Origin: an uncultured Gammaproteobacteria bacterium
GTDB taxonomy: Bacteria; Patescibacteriota; Patescibacteriia; Magasanikbacterales; GWA2-37-8
NCBI GenBank assembly: GCA_964407865.1
Contig: CAYOXC010000002.1
Coordinates: 120,646 to 184,645, forward strand
Reading direction: 5' to 3'
Length of the DNA stretch: 64,000 bases
Both the position numbers and the translations under genes were made by a program. Below, piece after piece: positions 2,119-15,412 of this stretch (positions are counted from its first letter, which is position 1; every line of letters begins with the position of its first letter). The notes below the pieces were generated by a model. It searched no databases, was not told where the DNA came from, and worked only from the letters and a program-made list of their open reading frames with translations.

Positions 2119-2135
2119 TACCCTACCTTTTTACA

Positions 2136-2168: not shown

Positions 2169-2181
2169 AAAAACAAAATGC

Positions 2182-2209
2182 TTGACATTATTCGCTTTAT
2201 TGCTATAAT
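2182..2209 (+). promoter_or_regulatory. Sigma70-like promoter (TTGACA-N16-TATAAT)
   Basis: TTGACA at 2182-2187 and TATAAT at 2204-2209, about 25 nt upstream of the ATG at 2232. Confidence 0.6.
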
Positions 2210-2231
2210 TCACCCTACAAAATAAAAAATT

Positions 2232-2771
2232 ATGAATAATGTCCAGTTAAAAAGATTATTAAATTTAGTCCGTAAAACCGGCGATCGGCTGGTTGTCGCA
2301 GACAAAGAAAGCGATGATGTTTTTGTTATAATGAATTTAGATGAATATGAAGATCTGTCTGATTTTAATGATGAAAACCATGATCATGATTTCGATGCAG
2401 TGCCGGATTTTTTAGAAGATGATAAAGCGGAAGAAATTGATGAAGAAATGCTCGAGCAAATTAATCAGAATATTTCCGAGTGGCGCGAAGAAAAAGATAA
2501 AGAAAAAATAACACAAATTACTGATGTGGCAGATGAAATAGTTGACAAACCGATTGTGGAAGATTTTTCCGATCAGAAAGAAGAGAATGTTCAATCAGGT
2601 TTTAAGAGTCGGAAGTCTTCAATACCGTCAGTTAGCGAGGTGTTGTCAGAGGAAAAATACCGCAATAGGCAGTTTAATGACAGTCCGCGTACAGGGTTTT
2701 TGGAGGAAGAGGATTTAAGCGATGTGTCCGAAGAAGAAGAGGAAAAATTTTATTTAGAACCAGTTGAATAA
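2232..2771 (+). CDS. Acidic protein with a Phd/YefM-antitoxin-like N-terminal segment and a long poly-acidic tail. Hypothetical.
   Basis: The N-terminus LKRLLNLVRKTGDRLVVADKESDDVFVIMNLDEYEDL resembles the YefM/Phd fold signature. The remaining ~130 aa are D/E-rich. No toxin-like partner ORF is adjacent. Confidence 0.45.
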   Translation: MNNVQLKRLLNLVRKTGDRLVVADKESDDVFVIMNLDEYEDLSDFNDENHDHDFDAVPDFLEDDKAEEIDEEMLEQINQNISEWREEKDKEKITQITDVADEIVDKPIVEDFSDQKEENVQSGFKSRKSSIPSVSEVLSEEKYRNRQFNDSPRTGFLEEEDLSDVSEEEEEKFYLEPVE

Positions 2772-2979: not shown

Positions 2980-4170
2980 ATGGCTGAGTTTGTAAGAACC
3001 AAGCCACACGTCAATGTTGGTACTATTGGCCACGTTGACCACGGTAAGACTACTCTTACTGCTGCGATGTTGCAGGTTCTAACCGCTCATGGTATGAGCG
3101 CCCAGAAAAAGGGTGTTGATGATTTGGATAAGGCCCCAGAGTCAAAGGCTCGCGGCATTACCATTTCCACTGCCCATGTCGAATATGAGTCAGAAAAGCG
3201 TCACTATGCCCATGTAGACTGCCCAGGTCATGCTGATTATGTCAAAAACATGATTACCGGCGCGGCCCAGATGGACGGTGCTATTTTGGTTGTGTCCGCT
3301 GCCGACGGCCCAATGCCGCAGACTCGCGAACACATTCTCTTGGCTCGCCAGGTTGGCGTGCCTCACATTGTTGTTTTCTTAAACAAGGTTGATCAGGTTT
3401 CTGATCCAGAGCTAATTGATCTTGTTGAAGCGGAAATTCGCGATCTTTTGACAAAGTATGAATTTCCTGGAGATACCACTCCTATTATTCGCGGTTCAGC
3501 CCTTCAGGCTTTACAGAATCCGAATGATGAAAATGCGACAAAACCGATTATGGAGTTGGTTAAAACTTTGGATGAATATATTCCAGAGCCAGTTCGAGAA
3601 ACAGACAAGCCGTTCTTAATGCCGATTGAAGATGTCTTTTCAATCGAAGGCCGTGGAACAGTCGTTACCGGTCGTATTGAGCGCGGATTGATTCAAATAA
3701 ACGATGAGATTGAAATTGTCGGTTTGCTTGAGGAGCCAATGAAAACAGTTGTTACAGGTATTGAAATGTTTAACAAGCAACTGAAAGAAGGCCAAGCTGG
3801 AGATAATGCCGGCATTCTTTTGCGCGGTACCAAGAAAGAGCAAGTAGAGCGTGGTATGGTTTTGGCCAAACCCGGCTCAATTAAACCGCATACAGAGTAT
3901 GAAACTCAAGTTTATGTTTTAACCAAAGAAGAAGGTGGTCGACACAAACCATTCTTTAAGGGTTACAAGCCTCAGTTTTATATTCGAACCACTGATGTAA
4001 CTGGCGAGGTTTTATTGCCGGAAGGAACAGAAATGGTTATGCCTGGGGATACTATAAGTTTTATTGTTAAATTAATTAAGCCGGTTGCTATTGAGGAAAA
4101 AATGAAATTCGCTATTCGCGAAGGCGGAAGAACTGTTGGAGCCGGTGTTGTAACGAAGATTATTAAATAA
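2980..4170 (+). CDS. tuf: Elongation factor Tu
   Basis: [18 protein letters not shown] and NKVD GTPase motifs. 396 aa. Confidence 0.97.
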
Positions 4171-4181
4171 CCCAAGTCAAT

Positions 4182-4205
4182 AGAGGGGCGCTATTGCGCC
4201 CCTCT
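4182..4205 (+). terminator. Perfect 10-bp hairpin after tuf (agaggggcgc tatt gcgcccctct)
   Basis: Inverted repeat seen directly. The trailing T-run is weak. Confidence 0.45.
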
Positions 4206-4231
4206 AAGACATGGAATAATGTTCTTTTACC

Positions 4232-4573
4232 ATGACCCCCGCAAGCACAACCAAGAAAACTACCGAAGTATCCACAAGAATACGCATTAAAATACGCGCT
4301 TACGATAACAAAATAATCGATCAGGCGACCAAAATGATTATTGATACGGCAGAACGCAATGATGCTAAAGTGATTGGCCCAGTACCGCTACCAACTGAGA
4401 AGACAAAATTTACAGTTAACCGATCGACTTTTGTGCACAAGAACGCTCGTGAACAATTTGAAATGCGCATTCATAAGCGCTTAATTGATATCATGAACGC
4501 TTCGCCGAAGTGTGTTGATGCATTGATGAGTCTAAGCTTACCGTCTGGTGTGGATATTGAGATTAAAATGTAG
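4232..4573 (+). CDS. rpsJ: 30S ribosomal protein S10
   Basis: RIRIKIRAYDNKIIDQ...KRLIDI is a typical S10 sequence. Confidence 0.93.
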   Translation: MTPASTTKKTTEVSTRIRIKIRAYDNKIIDQATKMIIDTAERNDAKVIGPVPLPTEKTKFTVNRSTFVHKNAREQFEMRIHKRLIDIMNASPKCVDALMSLSLPSGVDIEIKM

Positions 4574-4659
4574 ACCGTTAAAATTTATCTTGTTTTAGCG
4601 AAAAATTGTCCAATAAAGCACTGGCGTATCATTAATATCTTAATGCCATTGTTAGACTA

Positions 4660-4688
4660 TTGACAATTTTTGGTTAATTTAGTAAAAT
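4660..4688 (+). promoter_or_regulatory. Near-consensus sigma70 promoter inside the rpsJ-rplC spacer (TTGACA-N17-TAAAAT)
   Basis: TTGACA at 4660-4665, a 17-nt spacer, then TAAAAT at 4683-4688. Confidence 0.5.
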
Positions 4689-4951
4689 TGGGGACGTTAT
4701 CAAGCGGTCGGACAGTTTCAAATAAATAAGATCAGTCCGCATAAATGCGGAACAGGAAAACATTTATAAGAACTGCAAATGACCGAGGAGAATCATATTG
4801 GAAAATTTAGTTTATAAATAGCCAAATTAGTTTAGTTATTACCACTGGTTTGTGTGTTGTTAGACTGAGTGATTTGAGCCAGTTGGAAAGTAGTTTTTGG
4901 CTAGAAGCGATAGCACTGAAGTTTATTCAGTTTTATTGCTTCTAGTTTTTT
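4689..4951 (+). ncRNA. Candidate leader/sRNA transcript (promoter to terminator, ~250 nt) in the rpsJ-rplC spacer
   Basis: No ORF of 60 aa or more. The promoter at 4660-4688 and the terminator at 4901-4951 bracket the unit. An internal hairpin gtccgcat/atgcggaac lies near 4733-4752. Confidence 0.3.
4901..4951 (+). terminator. Intrinsic terminator/attenuator (ctagaagc...gcttctag + TTTTTT)
   Basis: 8-bp stem at 4901-4908 / 4938-4945 followed by a T6 run. Confidence 0.5.
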
Positions 4952-5017
4952 GTTAAGAGGGGAAGTTTAAAGGTTAACTCCGCAAAAAGAAGAAAGTGGA
5001 GCAATGACAGTATATAT

Positions 5018-5851
5018 ATGAAATTTATTTTAGGAAAAAAAATTGGCATGACACAGGTATTTTCGCAAACAGGCGAGATTGTGCCTGTTACCCGAGTGAT
5101 GGCCGGTCCGTGTCAAATTGTACAGATTAAGACTCCTGAAAAACAGAATGTTCAGGCTGTTGAGATTGGTTTTGATGAAGTAAAAGATTTTCGAGTCAAC
5201 AAGCCTAAAAGTGGCCATTTAAAAGATTTAAAGCCAATGCGTTATTTGCGTTCCTTTGAAACTGAAAAGATTGATGGTTTGAATCGAGGTGACATTATTA
5301 CAGTAGAAGTTTTTTCACCCGGCGATAAAGTGACTGTATCTGGAAACTCAAAAGGTAGAGGGTTTGCCGGTGTGGTTAAACGTCATCATTTTAAGGGTTC
5401 GCCAGCTACACATGGCCACAAACATGATTTGCGCGCTCCGGGTGCAATTGGTGCTGGAGGTGTACAGCGAGTATTTAAGGGTACGCGTATGGCCGGAAGA
5501 ATGGGCGGTGAACCGGTAACTGTACAAAACCTTGAAATAGTTGAAGTCCGTCCTGAAATAAATGAACTTTTGATTAAAGGTGCGGTTCCAGGAGCGCGAA
5601 ATACTTTGATTAAGATTTATTGTCCTGGTGATTTAGAAATAAAGAAAATTGAAGAGCCAGCCACAGAAGATATGACTTCTGTTGAGAAAGTTGATCAGGA
5701 GAATGAAGAATCAAAAAATGACGAGCAAGTCGTTGGAGAAACAACAACAGAGGTTAAAAATGACACTGTTGAAACACCGTCTTTGGAAAAAACAGTTGAG
5801 GGCGATAAGCAGGAAATGAAGGTAGAAGAACCAACTGTTACAAGTCAATAA
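5018..5851 (+). CDS. rplC: 50S ribosomal protein L3 with a ~65-aa acidic C-terminal extension
   Basis: The L3 core is residues 1-210. The tail is rich in E, T and K. Confidence 0.93.
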   Translation: MKFILGKKIGMTQVFSQTGEIVPVTRVMAGPCQIVQIKTPEKQNVQAVEIGFDEVKDFRVNKPKSGHLKDLKPMRYLRSFETEKIDGLNRGDIITVEVFSPGDKVTVSGNSKGRGFAGVVKRHHFKGSPATHGHKHDLRAPGAIGAGGVQRVFKGTRMAGRMGGEPVTVQNLEIVEVRPEINELLIKGAVPGARNTLIKIYCPGDLEIKKIEEPATEDMTSVEKVDQENEESKNDEQVVGETTTEVKNDTVETPSLEKTVEGDKQEMKVEEPTVTSQ

Positions 5852-5865
5852 TTTGGGAAATATTT

Positions 5866-6507
5866 ATGAAGACAAAGGTATACAATCTAGAAGGAAAAGA
5901 AGTGTCAGAAATGAATTTGAATGACAAGGTGTTTGGGGTAAAAGTTAAACCTGAATTTGTTCATGAAGTTTTTCTATTACAGATGCGCAACCAGCGCCAG
6001 CCTTGGGCCGATAGTAAAAATCGTGGCGAGGTAAGCGGTGGTGGTAAAAAGCCGTGGCGTCAGAAGGGCACTGGTCGTGCCAGGCACGGTTCAATTCGTT
6101 CACCTCTTTGGGTAGGTGGCGGTGTAACATTCGGTCCTTTAGCTGAACGCAATTACAAAGCTAAAATTAATAAGCGCGCACGAAAACTGGCTGCTAAAAT
6201 GTGTTTGTCTGACAAGGTTGAAGGAAATGCTTTGTACGTAGTAGAGGACTTTGCTTTTGTTGAACCAAAAACAAAGTTGTTTGTACAATTTTTAAGCAAA
6301 TTACCAGTAAAACAGAAAAGATTTTTAGTATTGACTGGCGCAGAAGACAACTCAAAGGTTTACCAGATGACACGCAATTTAAAAACGATTGAAACAATCC
6401 GAGCGGTTGATGCTAGTGTTATTTCCTTAGTTCAAAATGCAGCAATTATTGTCAGTAAAGATGCGATTAATGAATTGGAAAGAATTTTAACAAAAAGCGA
6501 AAAATAA
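5866..6507 (+). CDS. rplD: 50S ribosomal protein L4
   Basis: GGGKKPWRQKGTGRAR motif. Confidence 0.93.
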   Translation: MKTKVYNLEGKEVSEMNLNDKVFGVKVKPEFVHEVFLLQMRNQRQPWADSKNRGEVSGGGKKPWRQKGTGRARHGSIRSPLWVGGGVTFGPLAERNYKAKINKRARKLAAKMCLSDKVEGNALYVVEDFAFVEPKTKLFVQFLSKLPVKQKRFLVLTGAEDNSKVYQMTRNLKTIETIRAVDASVISLVQNAAIIVSKDAINELERILTKSEK

Positions 6508-6513
6508 TCTGAT

Positions 6514-6912
6514 ATGGGTTTAATTAATAGAAAAAAGAAAATTAAAGAGGAAGAAAAAAAAGTTGACACTCCTATTGAAACTACAGCTGTTAAGTCGAAT
6601 CAAGCTGAGTCGTCAAAAAAGGGTTCGATTATTTCTAACCGATTAATTTTAAAACCGTTGATTACCGAAAAAGCGGCTATTGCTCAAAGTTTAAATAAAT
6701 ATTCTTTTATAGTTATAAAAGATGCGAGCAAAGTTCAAATTAAAAAAGCAATTAAAGAAATTTACGGAATAGAACCGAAGACGGTTAATTTAATCAATAT
6801 GGAAGGAAAAAAGAGACGTTTTGGCCGTTCAACCGGTCGACGCTCAGATTACAAGAAGGCCGTGGTGACTCTGCCGTCAGGCAAGAGTATAACCATTCAT
6901 GAAGGCGTCTAA
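6514..6912 (+). CDS. rplW: 50S ribosomal protein L23 with a ~35-aa Lys-rich N-terminal extension
   Basis: L23 core ILKPLITEKA...YKKAVVTL. Confidence 0.88.
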   Translation: MGLINRKKKIKEEEKKVDTPIETTAVKSNQAESSKKGSIISNRLILKPLITEKAAIAQSLNKYSFIVIKDASKVQIKKAIKEIYGIEPKTVNLINMEGKKRRFGRSTGRRSDYKKAVVTLPSGKSITIHEGV

Positions 6913-6937
6913 AATTTTTTGAGAAGATTAGCTTTAT

Positions 6938-7780
6938 ATGGCAATAAAAGTCTACAAACCAACATCAAGTGGCCGCCGACACTCATCAGTCGACTCTTTT
7001 TCTGATATTACAAAAAAGAAACCTGAAAAATCTTTGACTGTTGCGCTTCAGCCGCATTCTGGACGAAACAACCAGGGCATTATTACGGTACGCCATAAAT
7101 CAGGTGGGGCGAAGAAATTATATCGCCTAGTGGATTTTAAACAAATTAATTATGGAGTTGAAGCTGAAGTATTGGCTATTGAGTATGATCCAAATCGTGG
7201 TCCGCGAATAGCTTTGATCCAGTATCCTGATGGCAAAAAATCCTACATACTTGCACCAGCCCAGTTAGGCGTTGGTGATAAGGTAATTTCTTCGGATAAA
7301 AGCATGGAGCCAAAAGTTGGATATCGGATGCCTTTAGAATTTATGCCAATTGGTACTTTTGTATTCAATATTGAACTGACCCCAGGAAAGGGTGGACAGA
7401 TGGTTAGAGGCGCTGGTTTATCCGCGCAGCTGGTTGGTATTGAAAAAGATTTTGCTCAAATCAAATTACCTTCTGGTGAGATTAGAATGGTACGCAAGCA
7501 ATGTGCTGCTTCAATCGGTTCTCTTAGTAATGCAGATAGGCGCTTAATTCGCTGGGGAAAAGCAGGTCGCTCGCGCCATCGTGGCATCAGACCGACAGTA
7601 AAGGGAAAAAACATGAACCCAGTTGATCATCCGCATGGCGGTGGCGAGGGCCATAGTCCGATTGGTCAGAAAAGAGGTCCTCAGACAGTTTATGGTAAAA
7701 CTGCAATGGGCGTTAGAACTCGTCAAAAAGGAAAATGGAGCGATAAATTTATTATTAAATCACGACGCCGCCAAAAATAA
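6938..7780 (+). CDS. rplB: 50S ribosomal protein L2
   Basis: GRNNQG, MNPVDHPHGGGEG. Confidence 0.96.
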   Translation: MAIKVYKPTSSGRRHSSVDSFSDITKKKPEKSLTVALQPHSGRNNQGIITVRHKSGGAKKLYRLVDFKQINYGVEAEVLAIEYDPNRGPRIALIQYPDGKKSYILAPAQLGVGDKVISSDKSMEPKVGYRMPLEFMPIGTFVFNIELTPGKGGQMVRGAGLSAQLVGIEKDFAQIKLPSGEIRMVRKQCAASIGSLSNADRRLIRWGKAGRSRHRGIRPTVKGKNMNPVDHPHGGGEGHSPIGQKRGPQTVYGKTAMGVRTRQKGKWSDKFIIKSRRRQK

Positions 7781-7798
7781 TTTAAATAGCTATTGAAT

Positions 7799-8113
7799 AT
7801 GTCACGAAGTTTAAAAAAAGGGCCATATATTGACGAAAAACTCCTGAAGAAAGTATTGGCTCAGAAAAACAGCGGTGCAAAGACTGCGATCAAAACATGG
7901 TCGCGTGCTTGTGTGATTTCGCCGGAAATGGTTGGGGTTACTTTTCAGGTGCACAATGGAAAAGATTTTATAAATGTAGGCGTAGATGAAAATATGGTCG
8001 GCCATCGCTTGGGTGAATTTGCACCAACTCGTAAGTTTATCAGACATGGTGGAAAGATGGCAAAGGATCAGGCAGGTAAAGCAGGCTCGGCAGGAGCTGG
8101 ATCGTCAAAATAA
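7799..8113 (+). CDS. rpsS: 30S ribosomal protein S19
   Basis: [11 protein letters not shown]...HNGK. The start is taken at the second Met. Confidence 0.93.
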
Positions 8114-8127
8114 ATTAAATAATTAAT

Positions 8128-8532
8128 ATGTCGCAGGAAATCAAAGCAACATTAAGGTTTTTGAAAATGGGCCCCCGCAAGGTGAGGTTGATTGCTGATT
8201 TGATGCGTGGACACAAAGTTGTTATTTTGCTCGATCGTCTTGCCATAAATAAGCGGAGAGCAGCCAAGCCAATGCTTAAATTGCTGAAATCAGCTGTGGC
8301 CAATGCAAAGAATAATTTTAAGCTTGATTTGAATACCCTGCGAGTCAAAACTATTACTGTAGACGGAGGTCCGATGGTAAAAAGATGGATGCCGAAAGCT
8401 CATGGCCGGGCAACCCCGATAAGGCAGCGCACTTCGCATATTAAACTTGTTTTGATTTCTGAAGAGCCGAAAATAAAAAAGAAGAAAGCTGAAAAAGATA
8501 AGAAAATTACGAAAAAGGAAAAAAATAAATAA
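8128..8532 (+). CDS. rplV: 50S ribosomal protein L22 with a Lys-rich C-terminal tail
   Basis: PRKVRLIADLMRG motif. Confidence 0.9.
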   Translation: MSQEIKATLRFLKMGPRKVRLIADLMRGHKVVILLDRLAINKRRAAKPMLKLLKSAVANAKNNFKLDLNTLRVKTITVDGGPMVKRWMPKAHGRATPIRQRTSHIKLVLISEEPKIKKKKAEKDKKITKKEKNK

Positions 8533-8573
8533 TTTATATATTAACGATTTAGATATTAGATATTTAGATTTGT

Positions 8574-9257
8574 ATGGGTCATAAAGTACATCCGAAAATT
8601 CATCGCACGCCGTATATTTATGCTTGGGATTCCCGTTGGTTTGCTAAAAAAAGCGATTTACCAACGCATCTTTCCCAGGAAGTTAAAATACGCGAGTATT
8701 TAGGAAAGAAATTGAAGGATTCTGGTATTGATGCGATTTCAATTGAGCGCAGTCCAAAGGATATGACCATTACTATTCTTGCCGCGAAACCGGGTGTAAT
8801 CATTGGTCGTTCCGGACAAGGACTTGATATTATTCGAAAACATATTGAAAAGAAATTTTTGCAGTGTAAGACAAAAGTAAAGCTAAATATTCAGCCAGTG
8901 AAACAGCCGGCTCTATCGGCTTCTATTGTCGCGGCTAATTGCGCTGTAGAAATTGAAAGGCGTATGCCTTTTAGGAGAGTAATGAAGCAAGCAATTGAGA
9001 AGGTAATGTCTGCTGGCGCAAAGGGTGTAAAAATTTCTATGGCCGGCCGATTAAATGGAGTGGAAATTTCACGACGCGAAAAGTTGGCAGCTGGTAAAAT
9101 GTCGCTTATCACATTGCGCAGTAATGTTGATTATGCTTTAGCTGAAGCCCAGACCATATATGGAAAAATTGGCATTAAGGTATGGATTTATCACGGCGAG
9201 GCCTTTGGTCGCCATGATCGTTTTGCAAAAATTGATAAAGAAGAAAAGAAAAAATAA
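8574..9257 (+). CDS. rpsC: 30S ribosomal protein S3
   Basis: [24 protein letters not shown]. Contains KH and S3-C domains. Confidence 0.95.
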
Positions 9258-9265
9258 ATATTAGT

Positions 9266-9676
9266 ATGTTAACGCCTAAGAAAGTATTACATAGAAAATG
9301 GCATAAAGGACGCCGCCGTAATAAGGGGGTGGCTACTCGCATGAACGCTATTGCTTTTGGCGAGTTTGGGTTAAAAAGTTTGACTCATGGTTGGGTTACT
9401 AGTCGCCAGATTGAAGCTACCAGACGCGTATTAACGCGCTATGTTAGGCGCGGAGGTAAGATATGGATACGGATATTTCCTGATAAACCAATTACAAAAA
9501 AAGGAAACGAACAGCCAATGGGTGGAGGCAAGGGCGCACCGGAATATTTTGTAGCAGTAGTAAAGCCGGGTACAATACTTTTTGAAATGGCCGGTATTCC
9601 AAAAGAGAAAGCAGCCGAAGCAATTAAATTGGCTGGTTATAAATTAGGATTAAGAGTTAAATTTGTAGAAAAATAA
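9266..9676 (+). CDS. rplP: 50S ribosomal protein L16
   Basis: [21 protein letters not shown]. Confidence 0.95.
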
Positions 9677-9678
9677 TA

Positions 9679-9888
9679 TTGGATATGGATTTTGATGAAT
9701 TAAAGACAAAAAGCGAAAAAGAATTGAAGGAATTGTTAAGTGAACAGGTAGCTTTGCTACGAGAGTTTAGGTTTAAAATTGCAAATCAGCAATTAAAAAC
9801 TGTTGGAAAGATTAAAGATGCTCGCAAAACAATAGCCAGAATAAAGATGCTTATAAATGCAAAAATAAGTGAGGCTAAGAAAAAATAA
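9679..9888 (+). CDS. rpmC: 50S ribosomal protein L29
   Basis: Position and sequence (ELKELLSEQVALLREFRFK). Confidence 0.85.
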   Translation: MDMDFDELKTKSEKELKELLSEQVALLREFRFKIANQQLKTVGKIKDARKTIARIKMLINAKISEAKKK

Positions 9889-9894
9889 TTTGCT

Positions 9895-10170
9895 TTGAAC
9901 AAAGATATGGAAAATAAAAATGAAAAAAAAGTAATTAAGCGCGAATTTACCGGAGAGGTTGTTTCTAATGCAATGGCAAAAACGATCGTGGTTAAGGTTG
10001 TTCGAAGCACCCTTCATCCAAAATATAAAAAGTATTACCGAACCAGTCGAAAATATTATGTTCATGATGAAAAACAAGCAGCAAAAGTTGGAAATTCTGT
10101 TAAATTTGTTGAATGCCGACCATTATCAAAGACAAAAAGATGGCGGCTGACTGAGGTTTTGTCAAAATAA
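9895..10170 (+). CDS. rpsQ: 30S ribosomal protein S17
   Basis: GEVVSNAMAKTIVVKV...YYVHDE. Confidence 0.92.
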   Translation: MNKDMENKNEKKVIKREFTGEVVSNAMAKTIVVKVVRSTLHPKYKKYYRTSRKYYVHDEKQAAKVGNSVKFVECRPLSKTKRWRLTEVLSK

Positions 10171-10179
10171 GATTTACAT

Positions 10180-10551
10180 ATGATTCAACATCGCTCAATG
10201 TTAGCAGTTGCAGACAATAGTGGCGCAAAGAAACTTCAGTGTTTGCGCGTGCTTGGTGGCTATCGAAAACGATATGCCCGTTTGGGCGATATTGTCACCT
10301 GTTCCGTGAAGATTGCTGCTCCGCGCGGTTTAGTAAAAAAAGGTGAAGTAGTACATGCGGTTATTGTTCGACAGAGAAAAGAAACACGACGAAAAGACGG
10401 AACGTATGTTCGTTTTGATGAAAATGCTGCCGTAATTGTTGACAGAAAGACAAAAGAACCAAAAGGGTCTCGTATTTTCGGGCCAGTAGCTAGAGAATTA
10501 CGTGTTAATGGTTTCCAGAAGATTGTTTCTTTGGCGCCCGAAGTGCTTTAA
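10180..10551 (+). CDS. rplN: 50S ribosomal protein L14
   Basis: [18 protein letters not shown]. Confidence 0.96.
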
Positions 10552-10572
10552 TAGACCAGTTGATATAAATGT

Positions 10573-10881
10573 ATGAGAATAAAAACAAACGACAAAGTAA
10601 AAATTGTTGCCGGTAAAGATCGGGGTAAGGAAGGCAAAGTTATTCAAGTTTTTTCCAAAGAAGGAAAGATTGTTGTTGAAGGTTTAAATTTGATGAAAAA
10701 GCACTTGCGCCCTCGCCAGCGAGGAGAAAAAGGACAAATTATTGAACTGGCTGCTCCTCTGGCAGTATCTAATGTTATGTTAATTTGTGAGAAATGCGGC
10801 AAACCAACAAGAATCGGTTATAAAACAGAAGGAGAGAGCAAGAAAAGAACATGTAAAAAATGTAAGGAATCAATTGTATAA
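10573..10881 (+). CDS. rplX: 50S ribosomal protein L24 with a C-terminal CxxC...CxxC zinc ribbon
   Basis: KOW motif KVKIVAGKDRGKEGKV. The tail CEKCGKP...CKKCKE supplies the zinc-ribbon cysteines. Confidence 0.9.
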   Translation: MRIKTNDKVKIVAGKDRGKEGKVIQVFSKEGKIVVEGLNLMKKHLRPRQRGEKGQIIELAAPLAVSNVMLICEKCGKPTRIGYKTEGESKKRTCKKCKESIV

Positions 10882-10886
10882 TCAAT

Positions 10887-11429
10887 ATGACATCGAATTT
10901 GTATAAACAATATAAAAAAGAGATAGTACCGGCATTAGTGAAGGAATTTAAATATAAAAGTGTTTCACAAGCTCCAAAAATTAAAAAGATTGTGCTTAAT
11001 GTTGGAGTTGGCAGGTTTATAAAGGAGCCGAGTTATATCGAAAATGTCGAGAAGAATTTGGCGAAAATTAGCGGGCAGAAACCGGTTCGGACAAAAGCAA
11101 AAAAAGCTATTTCCAATTTTAAGATTCGTGAAGGCATGGATATTGGAGTTATGGTTACGCTTAGAGGCCCAAAGATGTATGATTTTTTGGAAAAATTACT
11201 GACTATAACTTTGCCAAGAACAAGGGATTTTCGAGGTATTTCGGGAAAATCATTTGATGGTCACGGTAATTACAATCTTGGTTTTAAAGAAAATCTAGCC
11301 TTTCCAGAAATAAAAGGAAGTGATGCTGAAAAAAATCACGGTTTGCAGATTGTTGTTTCTACTACTGCGAAAAGTATTGAAGAAGGACGGGCCTTATTGG
11401 AAAAAATTGGTTTTCCTTTCGTTAAATAA
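10887..11429 (+). CDS. rplE: 50S ribosomal protein L5
   Basis: Typical L5 sequence. 180 aa. Confidence 0.93.
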   Translation: MTSNLYKQYKKEIVPALVKEFKYKSVSQAPKIKKIVLNVGVGRFIKEPSYIENVEKNLAKISGQKPVRTKAKKAISNFKIREGMDIGVMVTLRGPKMYDFLEKLLTITLPRTRDFRGISGKSFDGHGNYNLGFKENLAFPEIKGSDAEKNHGLQIVVSTTAKSIEEGRALLEKIGFPFVK

Positions 11430-11432
11430 TTA

Positions 11433-11624
11433 TTGTTTATGGCTACTGAATCGCAAATTGCTAAATCAAATCGTAAACCAAAATTTTCAACAAGAATTGT
11501 TCGTCGATGTTGGAAATGCGGTAGACAACACGGATATTTCGGAAGGTTTGGCTTATGCCGGATTTGTTTTAGAGAATTAGCAAACGATGGAAAGATTCCT
11601 GGTGTTCGTAAATCAAGTTGGTAA
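11433..11624 (+). CDS. rpsZ: 30S ribosomal protein S14, zinc-binding type Z
   Basis: 61-63 aa with CWKCGR...CRICFRE. Confidence 0.92.
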   Translation: MFMATESQIAKSNRKPKFSTRIVRRCWKCGRQHGYFGRFGLCRICFRELANDGKIPGVRKSSW

Positions 11625-11659
11625 AAATTTGTAATCAATATATTTTTGAATGAAAAATT

Positions 11660-12049
11660 ATGATGACTGACCCAATCGCTGACATGTTAACTAGAATTCG
11701 CAATGCCTCAATGGTTCGTAAGAAAGAGGTAGTTGTTCCGTTTTCTAAAATTAAGCATGCTATTGCCGAAACGATGGTGCGACAAGGCTATCTTGTTAAG
11801 GTTGAAATCACTGGTGATGTAAAGAAAGATCTTGTTATCGCACTAAAGTATGATGGGCGTGAGCCGGGAATTCAATCGCTTAAGCGCATTTCAAAACCCG
11901 GTCAGCGAAGATATGTTAAAAGTAATGAATTAGGAAAGGTATTGAACGGGTTAGGCTCGTCTATTTTATCAACTCCAAAGGGAATAATGAGTAATGTTGA
12001 AGCAAAAAAGGCTAAAGTTGGAGGAGAATTGCTTTGTGAAATATATTAA
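11660..12049 (+). CDS. rpsH: 30S ribosomal protein S8
   Basis: DPIADMLTRIRNA. Confidence 0.95.
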   Translation: MMTDPIADMLTRIRNASMVRKKEVVVPFSKIKHAIAETMVRQGYLVKVEITGDVKKDLVIALKYDGREPGIQSLKRISKPGQRRYVKSNELGKVLNGLGSSILSTPKGIMSNVEAKKAKVGGELLCEIY

Positions 12050-12067
12050 GAATTATTATTGAATAGT

Positions 12068-12616
12068 ATGTCAAGAGTTGGTAAAAAAATTCATGAATTA
12101 CCGCCAGGAGTGACCGCTCAAGTGTCTGGCCAAACTCTGCTTGTAAGAGGCCCGAAGGGGGAACTTAGTTTAAAGATCCATCCGCGTGTTATCATTTCAG
12201 TGGAGGATAATAAATTAAGCGTTAAGGTATCGCGTGAAAATGATAAAAATGAGCGTGCTCTTTGGGGAACATTTTCTAGCTTAGCTGAGGGCATGATTCA
12301 AGGTGTTTCTCAAGGTTTTGTTAAAGAACTCGAAATTAATGGAGTTGGTTATAAAGCAAACATGCAGGGAGACAAGCTTGTGTTGGCTGTTGGCTATTCG
12401 CATCCAGTTGAATTTAATTCTCCACCAGGCATAAAAATTTCTGTTGAAAAAAATATTATTAAAATAGAAGGATTTGACAAGCAGTTGGTTGGTGAAACAG
12501 CGGCCCAGATTCGCGCTGTTAAAAAACCGGAGCCTTATCAGGGAAAGGGTATAAAATATATTGATGAAATAATCAGGCGTAAAGTCGGTAAGACTGCCGC
12601 CAAAAGCGCATCTTAA
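12068..12616 (+). CDS. rplF: 50S ribosomal protein L6
   Basis: MSRVGKK start. Two L6 repeats. Confidence 0.92.
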   Translation: MSRVGKKIHELPPGVTAQVSGQTLLVRGPKGELSLKIHPRVIISVEDNKLSVKVSRENDKNERALWGTFSSLAEGMIQGVSQGFVKELEINGVGYKANMQGDKLVLAVGYSHPVEFNSPPGIKISVEKNIIKIEGFDKQLVGETAAQIRAVKKPEPYQGKGIKYIDEIIRRKVGKTAAKSAS

Positions 12617-12625
12617 AGAAATAAT

Positions 12626-13009
12626 ATGAAAAGATCTGTTAATAAAAATAAAAGCACTAGACGTTTGGTTCGTCATACGCGTGTAAGAGCGCATATTGAG
12701 GGAACTTCAGAATGTCCGCGGATTTCGGTATTTCGAGGATTAAGAAAAATTACAGTACAGTTTATTGATGACAAAAAAGCCCATACTTTGTGTTCCGCAT
12801 CCTCTGATGAAGTAGAAAAGAGCAAAGAAAAAGTTGAGGGCATGACAGGTAAGGTCGCCTTAGCTTATTTAACAGGGAAATTAGCGGCTGAAAAGGCAAA
12901 AGAAAAAGGAATTGTTCAGGCTGTGTTTGATCGGGGTGGCTATCGTTATCATGGTAGGGTGGCTGCTGTTGCCGAGGGTATTCGTCAGAGCGGAGGAATA
13001 AAATTTTAA
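12626..13009 (+). CDS. rplR: 50S ribosomal protein L18
   Basis: PRISVFRGLRKITVQFIDD. Confidence 0.9.
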   Translation: MKRSVNKNKSTRRLVRHTRVRAHIEGTSECPRISVFRGLRKITVQFIDDKKAHTLCSASSDEVEKSKEKVEGMTGKVALAYLTGKLAAEKAKEKGIVQAVFDRGGYRYHGRVAAVAEGIRQSGGIKF

Positions 13010-13031
13010 ATTGCCACTAAAATAAATTTTT

Positions 13032-13598
13032 ATGAAACCAATTCGTAAAAAAGGTGATAAATTCAAACGTGCTGAGCGCAAGGAGTTTGATCAGCATATT
13101 GTTGATCTTGCTCGAGTAACACGAGTCACTGAGGGTGGCAAGCATTTAAGTTTTCGTGCCTGTATTATTATTGGTGACAGAAAAGGGCGAGTTGGTTTTG
13201 GTGTAGCCAAGGGCAAAGATGTTCAGTTGGCTGTTGAAAAGGCAATGCGACAGGCGAAAAAGAATTTAATAAAGGTGCCATTGGTTAATGATACTATTCC
13301 ACATACAATAATTAGTAAATATAAGGCAGCCAAGGTTTTGCTTAAGCCTGCCCCGGTGGGTTCTGGTGTTATCGCTGGAGGAGCGGTGCGAGTAGTGTTA
13401 GAATTGGCCGGCGTTCTTAATATTTCTTCAAAAATAATGAGTCGAACCAAAAACAAGATAGCAGTTGTAAAAGCAACCTTTAAAGCACTGGAAAGTTTTA
13501 AGAAAAAAGCTTTGCCAAAGGAAGAAAAAGCTAAGGAAGTAGCTGTAGTGAAGGAACAGGATGAAGAAAAAGAGTCTGATAAGATGAATAAAAAATAA
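13032..13598 (+). CDS. rpsE: 30S ribosomal protein S5 with a short K/E-rich C-terminal extension
   Basis: VTRVTEGGKHLSFRA...GSGVIAGGAVR. Confidence 0.93.
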   Translation: MKPIRKKGDKFKRAERKEFDQHIVDLARVTRVTEGGKHLSFRACIIIGDRKGRVGFGVAKGKDVQLAVEKAMRQAKKNLIKVPLVNDTIPHTIISKYKAAKVLLKPAPVGSGVIAGGAVRVVLELAGVLNISSKIMSRTKNKIAVVKATFKALESFKKKALPKEEKAKEVAVVKEQDEEKESDKMNKK

Positions 13599-13603
13599 AA
13601 AGT

Positions 13604-14059
13604 ATGAAATTATCAGTACATACAATGAAACCAGCGCGCGGTGCTAAACATTCTCGCAAAAGAGTTGGTCGCGGCAACGCTTCAGGACATGGCACTTACT
13701 CAACCCGTGGAGGTAAAGGACAGACAGCTCGTTCTGGTGGCAGTCGTGGTTTGAAATTAAAAGCATTTAAGAATTTGATGCAGTCAACTCCTAAACTTAG
13801 GGGTTTTAAAAGTCTGAAAATAAAACCTGTCGAGGTTAATTTATCAGACTTAGAAAAGAATTTTAATATTGGTGAAACTGTTAATTTGACCGCACTAAAG
13901 GAGAAGGGTCTTGTTAAACCAAGAGCTCTTAAAGCAAAAGTATTGCTCAAAGGTGAATTAAAAAAGAAATTAATTATTGACGGTATTGGCGTGACAAAAG
14001 GCGCCAAAGAGATGATTGAAAAAGTCGGCGGAGAAATTACAAAGTACAAAGAAGCTTAG
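13604..14059 (+). CDS. rplO: 50S ribosomal protein L15. No L30 gene lies between rpsE and rplO.
   Basis: RKRVGRGNASGHG. rpsE ends at 13598 and rplO starts at 13604. Confidence 0.92.
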   Translation: MKLSVHTMKPARGAKHSRKRVGRGNASGHGTYSTRGGKGQTARSGGSRGLKLKAFKNLMQSTPKLRGFKSLKIKPVEVNLSDLEKNFNIGETVNLTALKEKGLVKPRALKAKVLLKGELKKKLIIDGIGVTKGAKEMIEKVGGEITKYKEA

Positions 14060-14134
14060 TAATCACTGGGTGGTTGTGGTATATTTGTTAAGTGTTTATT
14101 CCGGCTTTATGTCGGTAGAATAAAGTACTTATAT

Positions 14135-15412
14135 ATGTGGGATAAACTTCAAAAAGTCTGGAAAATAAAAGATATCCGAAATAATATTCTTATTGTTTTG
14201 GGTCTTTTAGTTATTTATCGGTTGGTAGCTCACATTCCAGTACCTGGTGTAAATGTTGAAGGATTGCGCGAGCTTTTGGCTGGTCAGCAAGCTTTTCAGC
14301 TTTTAGATATTTTTGCCGGTGGTACGGTCAAGAATTTTTCCTTGATCATGCTTGGCGTTGCTCCCTATATTACTTCTTCCATTATTTTCCAATTATTGGT
14401 GATGATTGTGCCAAAATTAGAAGAGCTTTCAAAAGAAGGAGAGTCTGGCCAGGCAAAAATAAACATGTATACGCGCTGGCTGACGGTTCCTTTGGCTTTT
14501 TTCCAATCATATGCAATGATACAGTTTTTATCAAAGTCATCCAGAAATATTCTTCCGGCAGATTTGTCGGCTGTAGGCATGCTTACAATTATTGTTAGTA
14601 TTACGGCTGGTACTATGTTTTTAGTCTGGATAGGCGAGCTTATTTCCGAACGCAAGGTCGGCAATGGTATTTCATTATTGATTTTTGCCGGTATCGTGGC
14701 TTCTTTTCCGACGGCCATAGCTGGAGCAATAGCTAATTATAGCTCTGCTGATTTTTATACTTTTTTAATGTTCGGCATTGTAGCACTTATGACTGTGGTT
14801 GGCGTTGTCTTTATTAACGAAGGGCAGAGGAATATTCCGGTGAATTATGCCAAACAAGTTCGCGGTAGTCGTGTTTTTGGTGGTGGTTCTACACATTTGC
14901 CCCTGCGTGTAAATATGGCTGGCGTGATTCCGATTATCTTTGCAATTTCTCTCGTGCTTATCCCTCCGATGATCGCCCAGTTTTTTGTTAGTGCAAAAGC
15001 CGAGTGGCTGAAAAGCTTAGCCATGCTTATTGTTCGATTGTTTAATAATAATGCTTTTTACGGAATTGCATATTTTCTTCTGGTTTTTGGTTTTACTTTT
15101 TTCTATACTTCAGTCATATTTCACCCAAACAAGGTGGCGGAAAATCTCCAGAAGAACGGCGGGTTTATTCCTGGTATTCGTCCAGGTAAAGAAACTGAGA
15201 ATTATCTTGGCGCCATTGTTAGTCGGATTAATTTAGTTGGTGCTAGTTTTCTTGGACTTATCGCAATTTTGCCACTTTTAGTGAAGGCAGTCAGTGGATC
15301 GCAGGCTTTGACTATCGGTGGTACTTCTTTGCTTATCGTAGTGGCGGTAGCTATTGAATCAGCTAAGCAAATTCAGTCTCAGGTAACAATGCACGAATAC
15401 GACCATATATAA
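14135..15412 (+). CDS. secY: Preprotein translocase subunit SecY
   Basis: 10-TM protein in the conserved position after rplO. GGTSLLI motif. Confidence 0.95.
   Translation: MWDKLQKVWKIKDIRNNILIVLGLLVIYRLVAHIPVPGVNVEGLRELLAGQQAFQLLDIFAGGTVKNFSLIMLGVAPYITSSIIFQLLVMIVPKLEELSKEGESGQAKINMYTRWLTVPLAFFQSYAMIQFLSKSSRNILPADLSAVGMLTIIVSITAGTMFLVWIGELISERKVGNGISLLIFAGIVASFPTAIAGAIANYSSADFYTFLMFGIVALMTVVGVVFINEGQRNIPVNYAKQVRGSRVFGGGSTHLPLRVNMAGVIPIIFAISLVLIPPMIAQFFVSAKAEWLKSLAMLIVRLFNNNAFYGIAYFLLVFGFTFFYTSVIFHPNKVAENLQKNGGFIPGIRPGKETENYLGAIVSRINLVGASFLGLIAILPLLVKAVSGSQALTIGGTSLLIVVAVAIESAKQIQSQVTMHEYDHI

What the first reader, a model, noticed from the sequence alone, without database searches (positions are those of the whole stretch)
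4574..5017. 444-bp non-coding insert between rpsJ and rplC with its own promoter and intrinsic terminator
S10 and L3 genes are normally adjacent. Here a spacer contains a near-consensus TTGACA-N17-TAAAAT promoter (4660-4688) and, ~210 nt downstream, an 8-bp stem + T6 terminator (4901-4951). An extra hairpin lies at ~4733-4752. Either a ~250-nt sRNA is encoded inside the S10 operon, or this is an L4/L3-type autoregulatory attenuator leader relocated between rpsJ and rplC.
Basis: seen in the sequence. Interest (0 to 1): 0.6.

Follow-up and report, generated by a model that had tools for sequence, protein, structure and literature searches.

The report
Conserved RNA leader before rplC operon
The 444-base gap between the S10 and L3 genes holds a conserved, structured RNA with its own promoter and terminator, which probably acts as an on/off gate for about 20 downstream ribosomal-protein genes in a group of uncultured (CPR) bacteria and matches no RNA family in Rfam or the papers searched.

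Summary
A TTGACA-N17-TAAAAT promoter lies at 4660-4688. A 21-bp hairpin with a U6 tract (4899-4951) follows about 205 nt downstream. The "extra hairpin" is the apex of an 81-nt stem (4705-4785).

The spacer is not a local insert. A covariance model of its 5' half hits the window once (72 bits) and 39 relatives' loci, always between rpsJ and rplC on the rplC strand. These relatives are mostly Magasanikbacteria (Patescibacteria).

Shared parts are:
- a long hairpin P1 with an invariant AAGA/AAAC internal loop flanked by covarying helices
- an SD-like AGGAGAA
- a helix P3 (AGCC/GGCU) whose 3' strand overlaps the terminator base
- a near-invariant terminator (GGCUAGAAGC...GCUUCUAGUUUUUUGUUAA)
- in half the members, a hairpin abutting the rplC start

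Variant hairpins with the same geometry occur in other Patescibacteria lineages, often without a promoter, so the element can sit inside the rpsJ-rplC transcript.

No Rfam family or searchable paper describes it.

Best reading: a cis-acting leader/attenuator of the rplC-secY operon, probably fed back by an operon-encoded r-protein. S8 and L4 are the leading candidates, but no binding partner has been tested. I file it as a new member of a known kind, with moderate interest.

The parts
4660..4688 (+). Sigma-70-type promoter: -35 TTGACA (4660-4665), 17-nt spacer, -10 TAAAAT (4683-4688). The start site is inferred at about 4694-4697.
   Evidence: It scores 11/12 in the scan. TTGACA-N17-TAnnnT lies at the same distance (18-35 nt) from helix P1c in 31/34 distinct Magasanik-type relatives. 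The start site is inferred, not mapped.
4692..4825 (+). Extent of the covariance-model (R1) match, i.e. the conserved 5' domain of the leader.
   Evidence: It is the single hit in the 64-kb window: 72.3 bits, E about 4e-9, + strand only.
4705..4785 (+). Long hairpin P1. P1a is 4705-4710/4780-4785, P1b is 4713-4718/4770-4775 and P1c is 4722-4727/4762-4767.
   Evidence: MFE -24.5 kcal/mol, z -5.9. P1c covaries, with UA<->CG, AU<->GC and other changes. The outer 24-nt flanks are complementary in relatives although their sequences differ: mean duplex dG -10.9 against -6.8 for shuffles, and 29/47 have z below -1.5.
4728..4731 (+). 5' side of the conserved 4x4 internal loop (AAGA). The flanking nucleotides AU (4726-4727) and U4732 are invariant.
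   Evidence: The columns AUAAG-U are invariant in 32 sequences. The loop is flanked on both sides by covarying helices.
4758..4761 (+). 3' side of the internal loop (AAAC), followed by the invariant AU (4762-4763).
   Evidence: The columns AAA-CAT are invariant or nearly so. The third position is A or C.
4732..4757 (+). P2: a variable hairpin above the loop. Base pairs are UC/GA at 4732-4733/4756-4757; the apex stem is 4736-4741/4746-4751.
   Evidence: The base of P2 covaries (UA<->CG in 17 and 15 of 38 sequences). The apex varies in length from about 10 to 60 nt.
4786..4792 (+). Shine-Dalgarno-like AGGAGAA directly 3' of P1.
   Evidence: It is present at this position in most type M sequences and in several of the more distant variants. 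No conserved start codon or reading frame follows it (see Tried and rejected).
4798..4806 (+). A-rich linker UUGGAAAAU (family consensus UUGAAAAAU).
   Evidence: It is conserved in degenerate form across relatives. Its role is unknown.
4820..4826 (+). P3 5' strand (AGCCAAA).
   Evidence: The CC of AGCC is invariant in the 32-sequence alignment and the preceding AG nearly so. In single-sequence folds of transcripts cut before the terminator's 3' arm, GGCU pairs with an upstream AGCC/GGCC in most of the 33 relatives. The fifth pair changes between A-U, U-A and a bulged A.
4827..4895 (+). Variable domain enclosed by P3.
   Evidence: Both length and sequence differ between relatives: the distance between the P3 strands runs from about 17 to 120 nt. 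The 31-aa ORF 4850-4945 falls partly here and is not conserved.
4896..4902 (+). P3 3' strand (UUUGGCU). Nucleotides 4899-4902 are also the base of the terminator's 5' arm.
   Evidence: The two helices compete for GGCU.
4899..4951 (+). Intrinsic terminator: an interrupted 21-bp hairpin (4899-4947) and a U6 tract (4946-4951).
   Evidence: dG -26.3 kcal/mol, z -8.0. GGCUAGAAGC...GCUUCUAGUUUUUU is nearly invariant in the relatives while the upper stem varies and stays paired. A hairpin with U5-7 is found in 43/48 motif-bearing spacers, median dG -22.5.
4973..5008 (+). Start-proximal hairpin ('module 2'). The outer helix is GUUA 4973-4976 / UGAC 5005-5008. The inner helix is CUCCGC 4978-4983 / GUGGAG 4996-5001, which holds the only SD-like GGAG near rplC. 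It ends 9 nt before the ATG.
   Evidence: dG -9.4 kcal/mol, z -3.1. GUUAUC-[stem]-GCAAUGAC is present in 18/34 type M relatives, and the inner helix covaries: CUUCC/GGAAG, CUACG/CGUAG, CUCCC/GGGAG.
5018..15412 (+). The downstream unit, rplC to secY: about 20 tightly packed genes with no internal gap large enough for a promoter. It ends at a terminator at 15432-15453.
   Evidence: ORF list, Pfam hits for L3, L4, S8 and SecY, and the terminator/promoter scan. The other gene names are read from the translations and gene order.

Best explanation
The spacer encodes a conserved, structured 5' leader that works as a transcription attenuator for the rplC-secY ribosomal-protein operon.

Transcription starts at about 4695 from a strong sigma-70-type promoter. 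The nascent RNA folds into three parts in turn:
- a long hairpin (P1) displaying an invariant purine-rich internal loop (AAGA/AAAC)
- a helix P3 (AGCC/GGCU) that closes a variable domain
- a strong intrinsic terminator whose base shares the GGCU nucleotides with P3

RNA polymerase either stops at 4951, releasing a leader RNA of about 257 nt, or reads on into rplC.

The most likely control is autogenous feedback. A ribosomal protein encoded downstream binds the P1 loop when it is in excess over rRNA and shifts the balance towards termination. S8 and L4 are the leading candidates because both have this role in E. coli. In about half of the family, a second hairpin that ends 8-12 nt before the rplC start codon could add translational control.

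rpsJ (S10/NusE) lies upstream of the element and so escapes this control.

What is shown: the parts, their conservation, covariation and fixed position. What is inferred: the start site, conditional termination and the identity of the ligand.
For: (1) Conservation and position. Model R1 finds one site in the window and one in each of 39 other loci. All sit in the rpsJ-rplC spacer on the rplC strand. None sits in the roughly 89 loci that were fetched only because they matched the terminator pattern by chance.

(2) Structure. On 38 sequences, 98% of cells are paired. There are 57 double-change cells against 19.3+-5.2 in shuffles (0/500 reach the observed value). Slid controls are 34-55% paired. 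The outer P1 flanks are complementary despite unrelated sequences. P3 is recovered by independent single-sequence folds in most relatives.

(3) Expression signals. TTGACA-N17-TAnnnT is found in 31/34 relatives at a fixed distance. A terminator with U5-7 is found in 43/48, a median 57 nt before the ATG. No competing promoter lies after the terminator.

(4) Conditional termination is required by the layout. The operon rplC-secY has no other promoter. In variant lineages the hairpin and terminator lie inside the rpsJ-rplC transcript with no promoter of their own. A constitutive terminator there would silence essential genes.

(5) Precedent. In E. coli the S10 operon is controlled by L4 through a leader that gives both termination and translation inhibition (PMC3616713). 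S8 binds an internal loop with base triples in 16S h21 and in spc mRNA (PMC4176348). Both genes are in the unit downstream of this leader.

(6) A loose resemblance of the loop to the S8 site: 16S h21 of a relative reads UAUAAGUUGG...CCAAUACUGU, and the Uhrbacteria-type leader variant reads GGAG-UAAGUUGC...GCAUAAC-CUCC.
Against: - There is no transcript data, so the start site, the termination and the read-through fraction are all inferred.
- No classical antiterminator was found. In truncated folds the AGAAG part of the terminator's 5' arm is mostly unpaired, and only the 4-nt overlap with P3 offers a switch.
- rRNA mimicry is not demonstrable. HMM profiles of the 5' domain and of the terminator region give no significant match to 16S or 23S sequences.
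- A loose S8-type descriptor matches hundreds of places by chance.
- The A596-U644 pair of the S8 site has no counterpart in the leader loop.
- The terminator hairpin is very strong, which fits an efficient stop and therefore also an abundant free leader RNA.
- The near-invariant sequence of the terminator stem is not explained by the model.
Confidence: 0.65

Rival explanations
1. An independent, abundant small RNA of about 257 nt (4695-4951) with a function of its own, such as trans-acting regulation or protein sequestration. It merely resides between rpsJ and rplC, and the operon is expressed by residual read-through.
For: It has its own near-consensus promoter and a very stable terminator (-26 kcal/mol, U6), so most transcripts may end at 4951. 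The sequence of the terminator stem and linker is more conserved than a simple attenuator needs.
Against: The position and orientation directly upstream of rplC are fixed in all 40 hits. Variant lineages lack a promoter. No other promoter exists for 20 essential genes. Half of the family has a conserved hairpin linking the terminator to the rplC start. A terminated leader RNA would accumulate in the attenuator model too.
Confidence: 0.12
2. A riboswitch-like or factor-dependent attenuator that senses something other than an operon-encoded ribosomal protein. Candidates are a small molecule or ion such as (p)ppGpp, Mg2+ or a polyamine, or a general factor such as NusA, NusG or NusB-S10.
For: The promoter-structured domain-terminator layout, with a helix (P3) overlapping the terminator base, is the usual riboswitch design. 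No rRNA mimicry could be shown. A boxA-like GYUCUUUA lies upstream of rpsJ in the window and all 12 relatives examined, which hints that Nus factors act in this region (PMC5725501).
Against: The conserved core is a simple internal loop in a long hairpin, with no multi-helix pocket, which is more typical of protein sites. The domain enclosed by P3 varies in length and sequence. No Rfam riboswitch family matches.
Confidence: 0.13
3. Ribosome-mediated (leader-peptide) attenuation. The SD-like AGGAGAA and the UUG 7-9 nt downstream would start a short peptide whose translation modulates terminator formation.
For: GGAG followed at 6-9 nt by UUG, GUG or AUG is seen in about two thirds of type M sequences. 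In the window the frame would read UUG GAA AAU UUA GUU UAU AAA UAG.
Against: In at least 6 of about 31 relatives the corresponding triplet is UUA, which is not a start codon. Frame lengths run from 3 to more than 40 codons, with no conserved peptide or stop position. The more distant variants keep AGGAGAA without any start codon.
Confidence: 0.05
4. A non-functional spacer or decayed insertion whose promoter-like and terminator-like sequences are coincidental.
For: The region is AT-rich, and the total count of weak promoter-like hits in it is at chance level.
Against: There are 40 homologous sites with covariation, invariant loop nucleotides, a conserved promoter and a conserved terminator. 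There are no conserved ORFs.
Confidence: 0.02

Closest known systems
E. coli S10-operon leader (L4-interacting RNA)
   Same: It controls the block L3-L4-L23-L2-S19-L22-S3-L16-L29-S17. It consists of several hairpins, one of which is a terminator-like attenuator followed by a U run, plus a hairpin at the start of the first regulated gene. Control acts on both transcription and translation (PMC3616713; E. coli leader folded).
   Different: The E. coli leader lies upstream of rpsJ and includes S10 in the regulated unit. Here the element lies downstream of rpsJ: the E. coli rpsJ-rplC gap is 32 nt against 444 nt here. There is no sequence or structural homology and no Rfam match. Here the regulated unit also includes the spc-cluster genes and secY. 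L4 binding is untested.
S8 binding site (16S rRNA helix 21 and spc-operon mRNA operator)
   Same: It is an internal loop in a long helix with AAG on the 5' strand and A-C on the 3' strand, where G and C can pair as G597-C643 do and an adenine precedes the C as A642 does. rpsH (S8) is inside the unit downstream of the leader (PMC4176348).
   Different: There is no partner for the A596-U644 pair. One extra nucleotide sits on each strand between the G-C pair and the next pair. The type M loop is symmetric (4x4), whereas natural sites have an odd number of loop nucleotides. The element is at the 5' end of the operon rather than at rplE. The resemblance covers about five nucleotides and is not statistically supported.
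Candidate L4 r-leader of Archaeoglobi and S10 r-leader of Firmicutes/Clostridia (Eckert & Weinberg 2020, PMC7247131)
   Same: These are lineage-specific structured RNAs ahead of rplC-rplD-rplW-rplB (Archaeoglobi) or ahead of the S10 operon (Firmicutes). They were found by the same logic of conservation plus covariation upstream of r-protein genes.
   Different: They come from different lineages. No Rfam model matched here even at E up to 10. That paper's text does not mention Patescibacteria or Parcubacteria.
Riboswitch-type transcription attenuators in general
   Same: The order is promoter, structured sensor domain, then an intrinsic terminator that overlaps a sensor helix by a few nucleotides.
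   Different: No known aptamer fold is present. The sensor looks like a protein-binding internal loop.

Membership tests
Autogenous ribosomal-protein leader (generic class) | A conserved structured RNA immediately upstream of a ribosomal-protein gene or operon, on the same strand. | tested here: met
   There are 40 sites, all directly upstream of rplC. The operon rplC-secY follows.
Autogenous ribosomal-protein leader (generic class) | Secondary structure supported by covariation. | tested here: met
   98% of cells are paired. Five of 8 modelled pairs show double changes. There are 57 double-change cells against 19.3 in shuffles, and the slid controls are far lower.
Autogenous ribosomal-protein leader (generic class) | Bound by a protein encoded in the regulated operon, with expression falling as a result. 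| not testable with these tools
   This needs binding and transcription or translation assays with purified S8, L4, L3 and others.
Autogenous ribosomal-protein leader (generic class) | Mimicry of the protein's rRNA site (common but not universal in this class). | tested here: inconclusive
   Only motif-level resemblances were found. The AAG/AC loop resembles 16S h21. UUGAAAAAU equals E. coli 23S 746-754. GGCUAGAAGC resembles 23S 1062-1072. Profile searches against rRNAs were not significant. No 23S sequence from a close relative was available.
E. coli-type S10 leader (L4-interacting RNA) | Located in the 5' UTR of rpsJ. | tested here: not met
   The element is 3' of rpsJ. The tuf-rpsJ spacer holds other features.
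E. coli-type S10 leader (L4-interacting RNA) | Homology to the HD/HE/HG hairpins. | tested here: not met
   No Rfam hit. Reading the E. coli leader sequence and its predicted fold shows no shared motifs.
E. coli-type S10 leader (L4-interacting RNA) | An attenuator hairpin with a U run, plus a hairpin at the start of the first regulated gene. | tested here: met
   The terminator is 4899-4951 and the start-proximal hairpin is 4973-5008. This is an analogy of layout only.
Intrinsic terminator / transcription attenuator | A stable hairpin immediately followed by a U tract, on the transcribed strand, upstream of the regulated gene. | tested here: met
   dG -26.3 kcal/mol and U6. It is conserved in 43/48 relatives.
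Intrinsic terminator / transcription attenuator | A mutually exclusive alternative (antiterminator) structure. | tested here: inconclusive
   Only a 4-nt overlap of P3 with the terminator base was found. The rest of the 5' arm has no conserved partner.
S8 operator / 16S helix 21 site | G597-C643 pair with A595-(A596-U644) and (G-C)-U641 base triples, and a looped-out A642 (PMC4176348). | tested here: inconclusive
   G, C and the preceding A are present (the A is replaced by C in 2 sequences). No U644 equivalent exists, and there are extra nucleotides. Base triples cannot be tested from sequence.
Known Rfam families (riboswitches, sRNAs, 6S, SRP, tmRNA, RNase P, r-leaders) | A covariance-model match at or near the gathering score. 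| tested here: not met
   Only tRNAs pass in the window. In 4150-5100 the best sub-threshold hits are generic hairpin matches at 15-22 bits against thresholds of 35-99.

The most novel reading that the evidence does not exclude
The element is not a classical negative feedback site for an operon-encoded r-protein. Instead it would be a global growth-rate switch. Its P1 loop, or its P3/terminator junction, would sense a different signal, such as a small molecule like (p)ppGpp, or a Nus-type or other translation-linked factor. Together with a boxA-like site ahead of rpsJ, it would form a two-tier control in which S10/NusE and the remaining ~20 genes (r-proteins and SecY) are governed separately. 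That would be a way for transcription-factor-poor CPR bacteria to set ribosome output.
Probability: 0.15. Interest if true: 0.8.

Novelty: new member of a known kind. Interest (0 to 1): 0.55.

Why it matters
Very little is known about how candidate-phyla-radiation (Patescibacteria) bacteria regulate genes, because they are uncultured and have small genomes.

This element would be, as far as Rfam 15 and the searchable literature show, the first described ribosomal-protein leader in that group. It gates about 20 essential genes (L3 to SecY) with one promoter and one terminator.

It is conserved well enough to be modelled and annotated across metagenomes. The protein-binding hypothesis can be tested in vitro with recombinant proteins, without culturing the organism.

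It also shows a different solution from E. coli: S10/NusE is left outside the regulated block.

Tried and rejected
- **Rfam.** The scan of the whole window at gathering thresholds and the scan of 4150-5100 at E up to 10 gave nothing relevant. tRNA/tmRNA search found nothing in the spacer.
- **Coding potential.** Only a 31-aa and a 35-aa ORF touch the spacer. Both fall in regions that vary or are structural in relatives.
- **Leader peptide after AGGAGAA.** Rejected. The start codon is not conserved (UUA in at least 6 relatives) and the frame lengths are erratic.
- **Start-codon-overlapping mini-ORF** (ATG 5004...TGA 5019). The frame relation holds only in some relatives (read from the sequences).
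- **Classical antiterminator.** Folding transcripts truncated before the 3' arm showed no conserved partner for AGAAG.
- **rRNA mimicry.**
  - A loose S8-type descriptor is unspecific, with 237 hits on one strand of the window.
  - The exact 9-mer UUGAAAAAU occurs in E. coli 23S at 746-754, and GGCU(U)AGAAGC occurs at 1062-1072. From memory these are the H35 loop and the L11/thiostrepton-site hairpin.
  - HMM profiles of the terminator region and of the 5' domain give E 5.5 and no hit, respectively, against six rRNA sequences. I treat these as leads only.
- **Metagenome pattern scan.** The pattern CTAGARG-N15-45-CTTCTAGTTTTTT was too loose. About 89 of 120 loci were unrelated terminators, which served as negative controls.
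- **boxA upstream of a relative's 16S.** No match in L115, so the boxA-like motif upstream of rpsJ could not be calibrated against that lineage's own rRNA boxA.
- **Literature searches.** Searches for a Patescibacteria, Parcubacteria or Magasanikbacteria r-leader found nothing.
Full report
**What is in the window**

The window carries tuf (2980-4170), rpsJ (4232-4573), a 444-nt gap, then rplC (5018-5851), rplD and the remaining S10- and spc-cluster genes. These run without gaps to secY (14135-15412). A terminator follows at 15432-15453 and a new promoter at 15473. Pfam confirms EF-Tu, S10, L3, L4, S8 and SecY.

The best relatives of L3, S10 and EF-Tu are metagenome-assembled genomes labelled Candidatus Magasanikbacteria (Patescibacteria/CPR). 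The closest has 72% L3, 88% S10 and 91% EF-Tu identity.

**Check of the observation**

- TTGACA-N17-TAAAAT (4660-4688) scores 11/12. Only three sites in 20 kb score 11/12 or better, and all three lie in intergenic gaps ahead of the next + strand gene.
- The 8-bp stem plus T6 is the base of a longer hairpin. Nucleotides 4899-4947 form 21 pairs (-26.3 kcal/mol, z -8.0). The reverse strand reaches only -19.3, because the + strand uses G-U pairs.
- The small hairpin at about 4733-4752 is the tip of an 81-nt hairpin, 4705-4785 (-24.5 kcal/mol, z -5.9).
- The whole spacer folds much better on the + strand (-119, z -5.7) than on the - strand (-81, z -3.7).

**Comparative evidence**

I fetched 80 loci from one-genome-per-species contigs using the L3 protein.
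- The rpsJ-rplC gap is 200-800 nt in most Patescibacteria related to this organism. It is 8-150 nt in Saccharibacteria, Ignavibacteria, Bacteroidota and others. It is 32 nt in E. coli. The long spacer is therefore a lineage trait, not a local insertion.
- Spacers of the closest relatives share blocks of sequence with the window.
- A metagenome scan with the terminator pattern added 120 loci. Of these, 31 had S10 and/or L3 next to the match (most had both), and the rest were unrelated terminators.

A MAFFT alignment of 32 5' domains gave these results:
- invariant AUAAG-U ... AAA-CAU
- an RNAalifold structure of a 5-bp helix (P1c), a 4x4 internal loop (AAGA/AAAC) and the base of a second helix (P2)
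- compensatory changes in 5 of the 8 pairs

**The covariance model**

The model built from that alignment (R1) found exactly one site in the 64-kb window: 4692-4825, + strand, 72 bits. It found one site in each of 39 loci.
- Every hit lies in the rpsJ-rplC spacer, or upstream of rplC or downstream of rpsJ where the contig is cut.
- No hit fell in the roughly 89 chance loci.
- On the 38 distinct sequences, 98% of cells are paired. There are 57 cells with changes on both sides against 19.3+-5.2 in shuffles (0 of 500 reach the observed value). Sliding the partner by 1-3 columns drops pairing to 34-55%.
- Caveat: that alignment was fitted to the model. The independent MAFFT/RNAalifold result shows the same covariation.

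**Anatomy of the family ('type M', Magasanikbacteria)**

1. **Promoter.** An invariant TTGACA, a 17-nt spacer and TAnnnT are found in 31 of 34 distinct sequences. The -10 element ends 18-35 nt before P1c.
2. **P1.** This is a long interrupted hairpin.
   - Beyond P1c, the 24 nt on each side are complementary in most sequences although the sequences are unrelated.
   - Mean duplex energy is -10.9 against -6.8 for shuffles, and 29 of 47 have z below -1.5.
   - It carries the invariant loop and a variable apex, P2.
3. **AGGAGAA** directly after P1, followed by an A-rich stretch with consensus UUGAAAAAU.
4. **P3.** AGCC lies 51-59 nt after the loop and pairs with the GGCU that immediately precedes the terminator.
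   - This pairing is recovered in most of 33 single-sequence folds of transcripts cut before the terminator's 3' arm.
   - The extension of P3 varies and partly covaries.
   - P3 encloses a domain of variable length.
5. **Terminator.** GGCUAGAAGC ... GCUUCUAGUUUUUU(G)UUAA has a nearly invariant base and a variable but paired upper stem. A hairpin with U5-7 was found in 43 of 48 motif-bearing spacers. Median dG is -22.5 kcal/mol, about 160 nt after the loop and a median 57 nt before the ATG.
6. **Start-proximal hairpin.** In 18 of 34 sequences, GUUAUC-[covarying stem]-GCAAUGAC ends 8-12 nt before the rplC start codon. In some others the GUUAA that follows the U tract pairs with UAAC/UGAC near the start, which may explain why GUUAA is conserved.

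**More distant variants**

A stricter descriptor specifies a helix of at least 4 bp, (N)AA, G, N, U... ...A, NA(A/C), C and the closing helix.
- It is met in 51 of 106 S10-L3 spacers (29.8 kb).
- It is met 358 times in the remaining 2.6 Mb, which predicts about 4 hits in the spacers.

Besides type M, two other forms have the same geometry.
- 'Type O' reads GAAG-AAAGAU-CCC...GGG-AAAAC-CUUC. It occurs, for example, in MAGs labelled Buchananbacteria and Uhrbacteria.
- 'Type U' reads GGAG-UAAGUUGC...GCAUAAC-CUCC. It occurs, for example, in MAGs labelled Uhrbacteria.

Their closing helices are entirely different (AUAAAU/AUUUAU, GGUGAAG/CUUCAUC, GGAG/CUCC and others), which is deep covariation.

Only 3 of 8 type O and none of 6 type U spacers have a recognisable sigma-70 promoter. 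In several, the hairpin starts 9-48 nt after the last aligned S10 codon. There the element must be part of the rpsJ-rplC transcript.

**How it most likely works**

The layout is promoter, structured RNA, strong terminator, then about 60 nt to the first gene of a 10-kb operon that has no other promoter. This means RNA polymerase must pass this terminator to make L3, L4, L2, S3, S8, SecY and the rest. Termination therefore cannot be constitutive, particularly in lineages where the element is internal to the transcript. That is the logic of an attenuator.

The conserved core is a purine-rich internal loop in a long helix, which is typical of protein-binding sites. By analogy with E. coli, I propose autogenous control by a protein of the operon.
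- In E. coli, L4 controls the S10 operon by both termination and translation inhibition through its leader (PMC3616713).
- S8 controls the spc operon by binding an rRNA-like internal loop (PMC4176348).

The only structural switch I can see is the 4-nt overlap between P3 and the terminator base (GGCU, 4899-4902). If P3 holds, the terminator stem ends two nucleotides short of the U tract. From general knowledge of intrinsic terminators, this should weaken termination. I found no classical antiterminator. These mechanistic steps are inference.

**Which protein?**

S8 and L4 are the candidates with precedent, and L3 is the nearest gene.

A lead for S8 is that 16S helix 21 of a relative (L115) reads UAUAAGUUGG...CCAAUACUGU. 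The type U leader has the identical 5' strand UAAGUUG and a 3' strand CAUAAC. All types keep AAG on one strand and A-C on the other.

The match is imperfect. There is no A596-U644 equivalent, and one extra nucleotide sits on each strand. A loose descriptor of it is unspecific. An S8 aptamer with a symmetric loop shows that S8 tolerates non-native loops (PMC4176348), so the idea stays open.

Other short resemblances were found, and their rRNA locations are from memory.
- UUGAAAAAU equals E. coli 23S 746-754, the H35 loop.
- GGCUAGAAGC resembles 23S 1062-1072, the L11/thiostrepton-site hairpin.

Neither is significant in profile searches. No 23S rRNA from a close relative was available.

**Comparison with known systems and novelty**

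No Rfam 15 family matches. The element is not homologous to the E. coli S10 leader, and it sits on the other side of rpsJ.

Published r-leader surveys list an L4 candidate in Archaeoglobi and an S10 leader in Firmicutes, and nothing for Patescibacteria. Full-text searches for such an element in CPR, Parcubacteria or Magasanikbacteria found nothing.

I therefore file it as a new family within a known kind, the ribosomal-protein leader/attenuator. The unusual feature is that S10/NusE is excluded from the regulated block.

**Limits**
- There is no expression data.
- R1 E-values are rough.
- Many record titles of the MAGs are unreliable; several are labelled 'uncultured Gammaproteobacteria'.

Noticed in passing
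window 4181-4231 (tuf-rpsJ spacer); same spacer in L001-L006, L008, L009, L083, L105, L123, L166: Right after tuf there is a perfect GC-rich hairpin (GAGGGGCGC-UAUU-GCGCCCCUC, 4181-4205). Just before the rpsJ start is a boxA-like GUUCUUUUACC (4221-4231). All 12 relatives examined have a GC-rich hairpin of about 8-13 bp, followed by GYUC(Y/A)UU(U)A. One (L006) matches the published boxA consensus GYTCTTTAANA exactly. This may mean NusB-S10 autoregulates rpsJ, as proposed for some Gammaproteobacteria (PMC5725501). It would also fit rpsJ being kept outside the rplC leader's control. The degenerate pattern occurs 7 times per strand in the window by chance, and no such motif was found upstream of the 16S gene in L115.
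   Followed up: partly
L013, L017, L021, L031, L067, L193 (type O; L023 and L043 by eye only); L020, L022, L029, L032, L035, L037 (type U), rpsJ-rplC spacers: Other Patescibacteria lineages carry hairpins of the same geometry with different sequence (GAAG-AAAGAU...AAAAC-CUUC; GGAG-UAAGUUGC...GCAUAAC-CUCC). They are usually followed by AGGAG and a terminator, and often lack a promoter. Further spacers (L016, L019, L033, L040, L052, L072, L078) share a recurrent GRAAGUG motif that I did not resolve.
   Followed up: partly
L007, about 2210-2800 (between rpsJ and the leader): One Magasanikbacteria MAG has about 590 extra nucleotides between rpsJ and the leader hairpin. They contain an open frame of about 155 codons (IEAETDYVKNMIRETRQEGREA...). 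No consensus promoter was found in front of its leader.
   Followed up: no
L115 733-2222; L133 1-466; L130 4191-4418: In three relatives a 16S rRNA gene, or its 3' end, lies on the same contig stretch upstream of tuf-rpsJ-leader-rplC. In those genomes the rRNA gene and the r-protein cluster are therefore neighbours.
   Followed up: no
window 5630-5851: L3 carries a C-terminal extension of about 75 residues rich in acidic residues (…EEPATEDMTSVEKVDQENEESKNDEQ…). It lies beyond where alignment to most relatives' L3 ends (residues 198-220); a few relatives align further (to residue 270).
   Followed up: no
window 22-2771: There is a 698-aa ORF with a long, Glu/Ala/Lys-rich and probably coiled-coil region and no Pfam match (22-2118). 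A terminator follows at 2135-2158, then a perfect consensus promoter (TTGACA-16-TATAAT with TG, 2182-2209). Next comes a 179-aa very acidic ORF with a weak, sub-threshold Phd/YefM-antitoxin-like N-terminus (2232-2771).
   Followed up: no
window 13598-13604: rpsE is followed directly by rplO with no rpmD (L30) gene between them. From my own knowledge this is a known trait of CPR genomes.
   Followed up: no
window 4798-4806 and 4899-4908 versus E. coli 23S (L201 3005-3013 and 3321-3331): Two conserved leader blocks resemble rRNA segments. The family consensus UUGAAAAAU (UUGGAAAAU in the window) is identical to E. coli 23S 746-754. GGCUAGAAGC is one deletion away from 23S 1062-1072 (GGCUUAGAAGC), whose partner strand AGCC is also the P3 partner. 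From memory these are the H35 loop and the L11/thiostrepton hairpin. Profile searches do not make either significant.
   Followed up: partly
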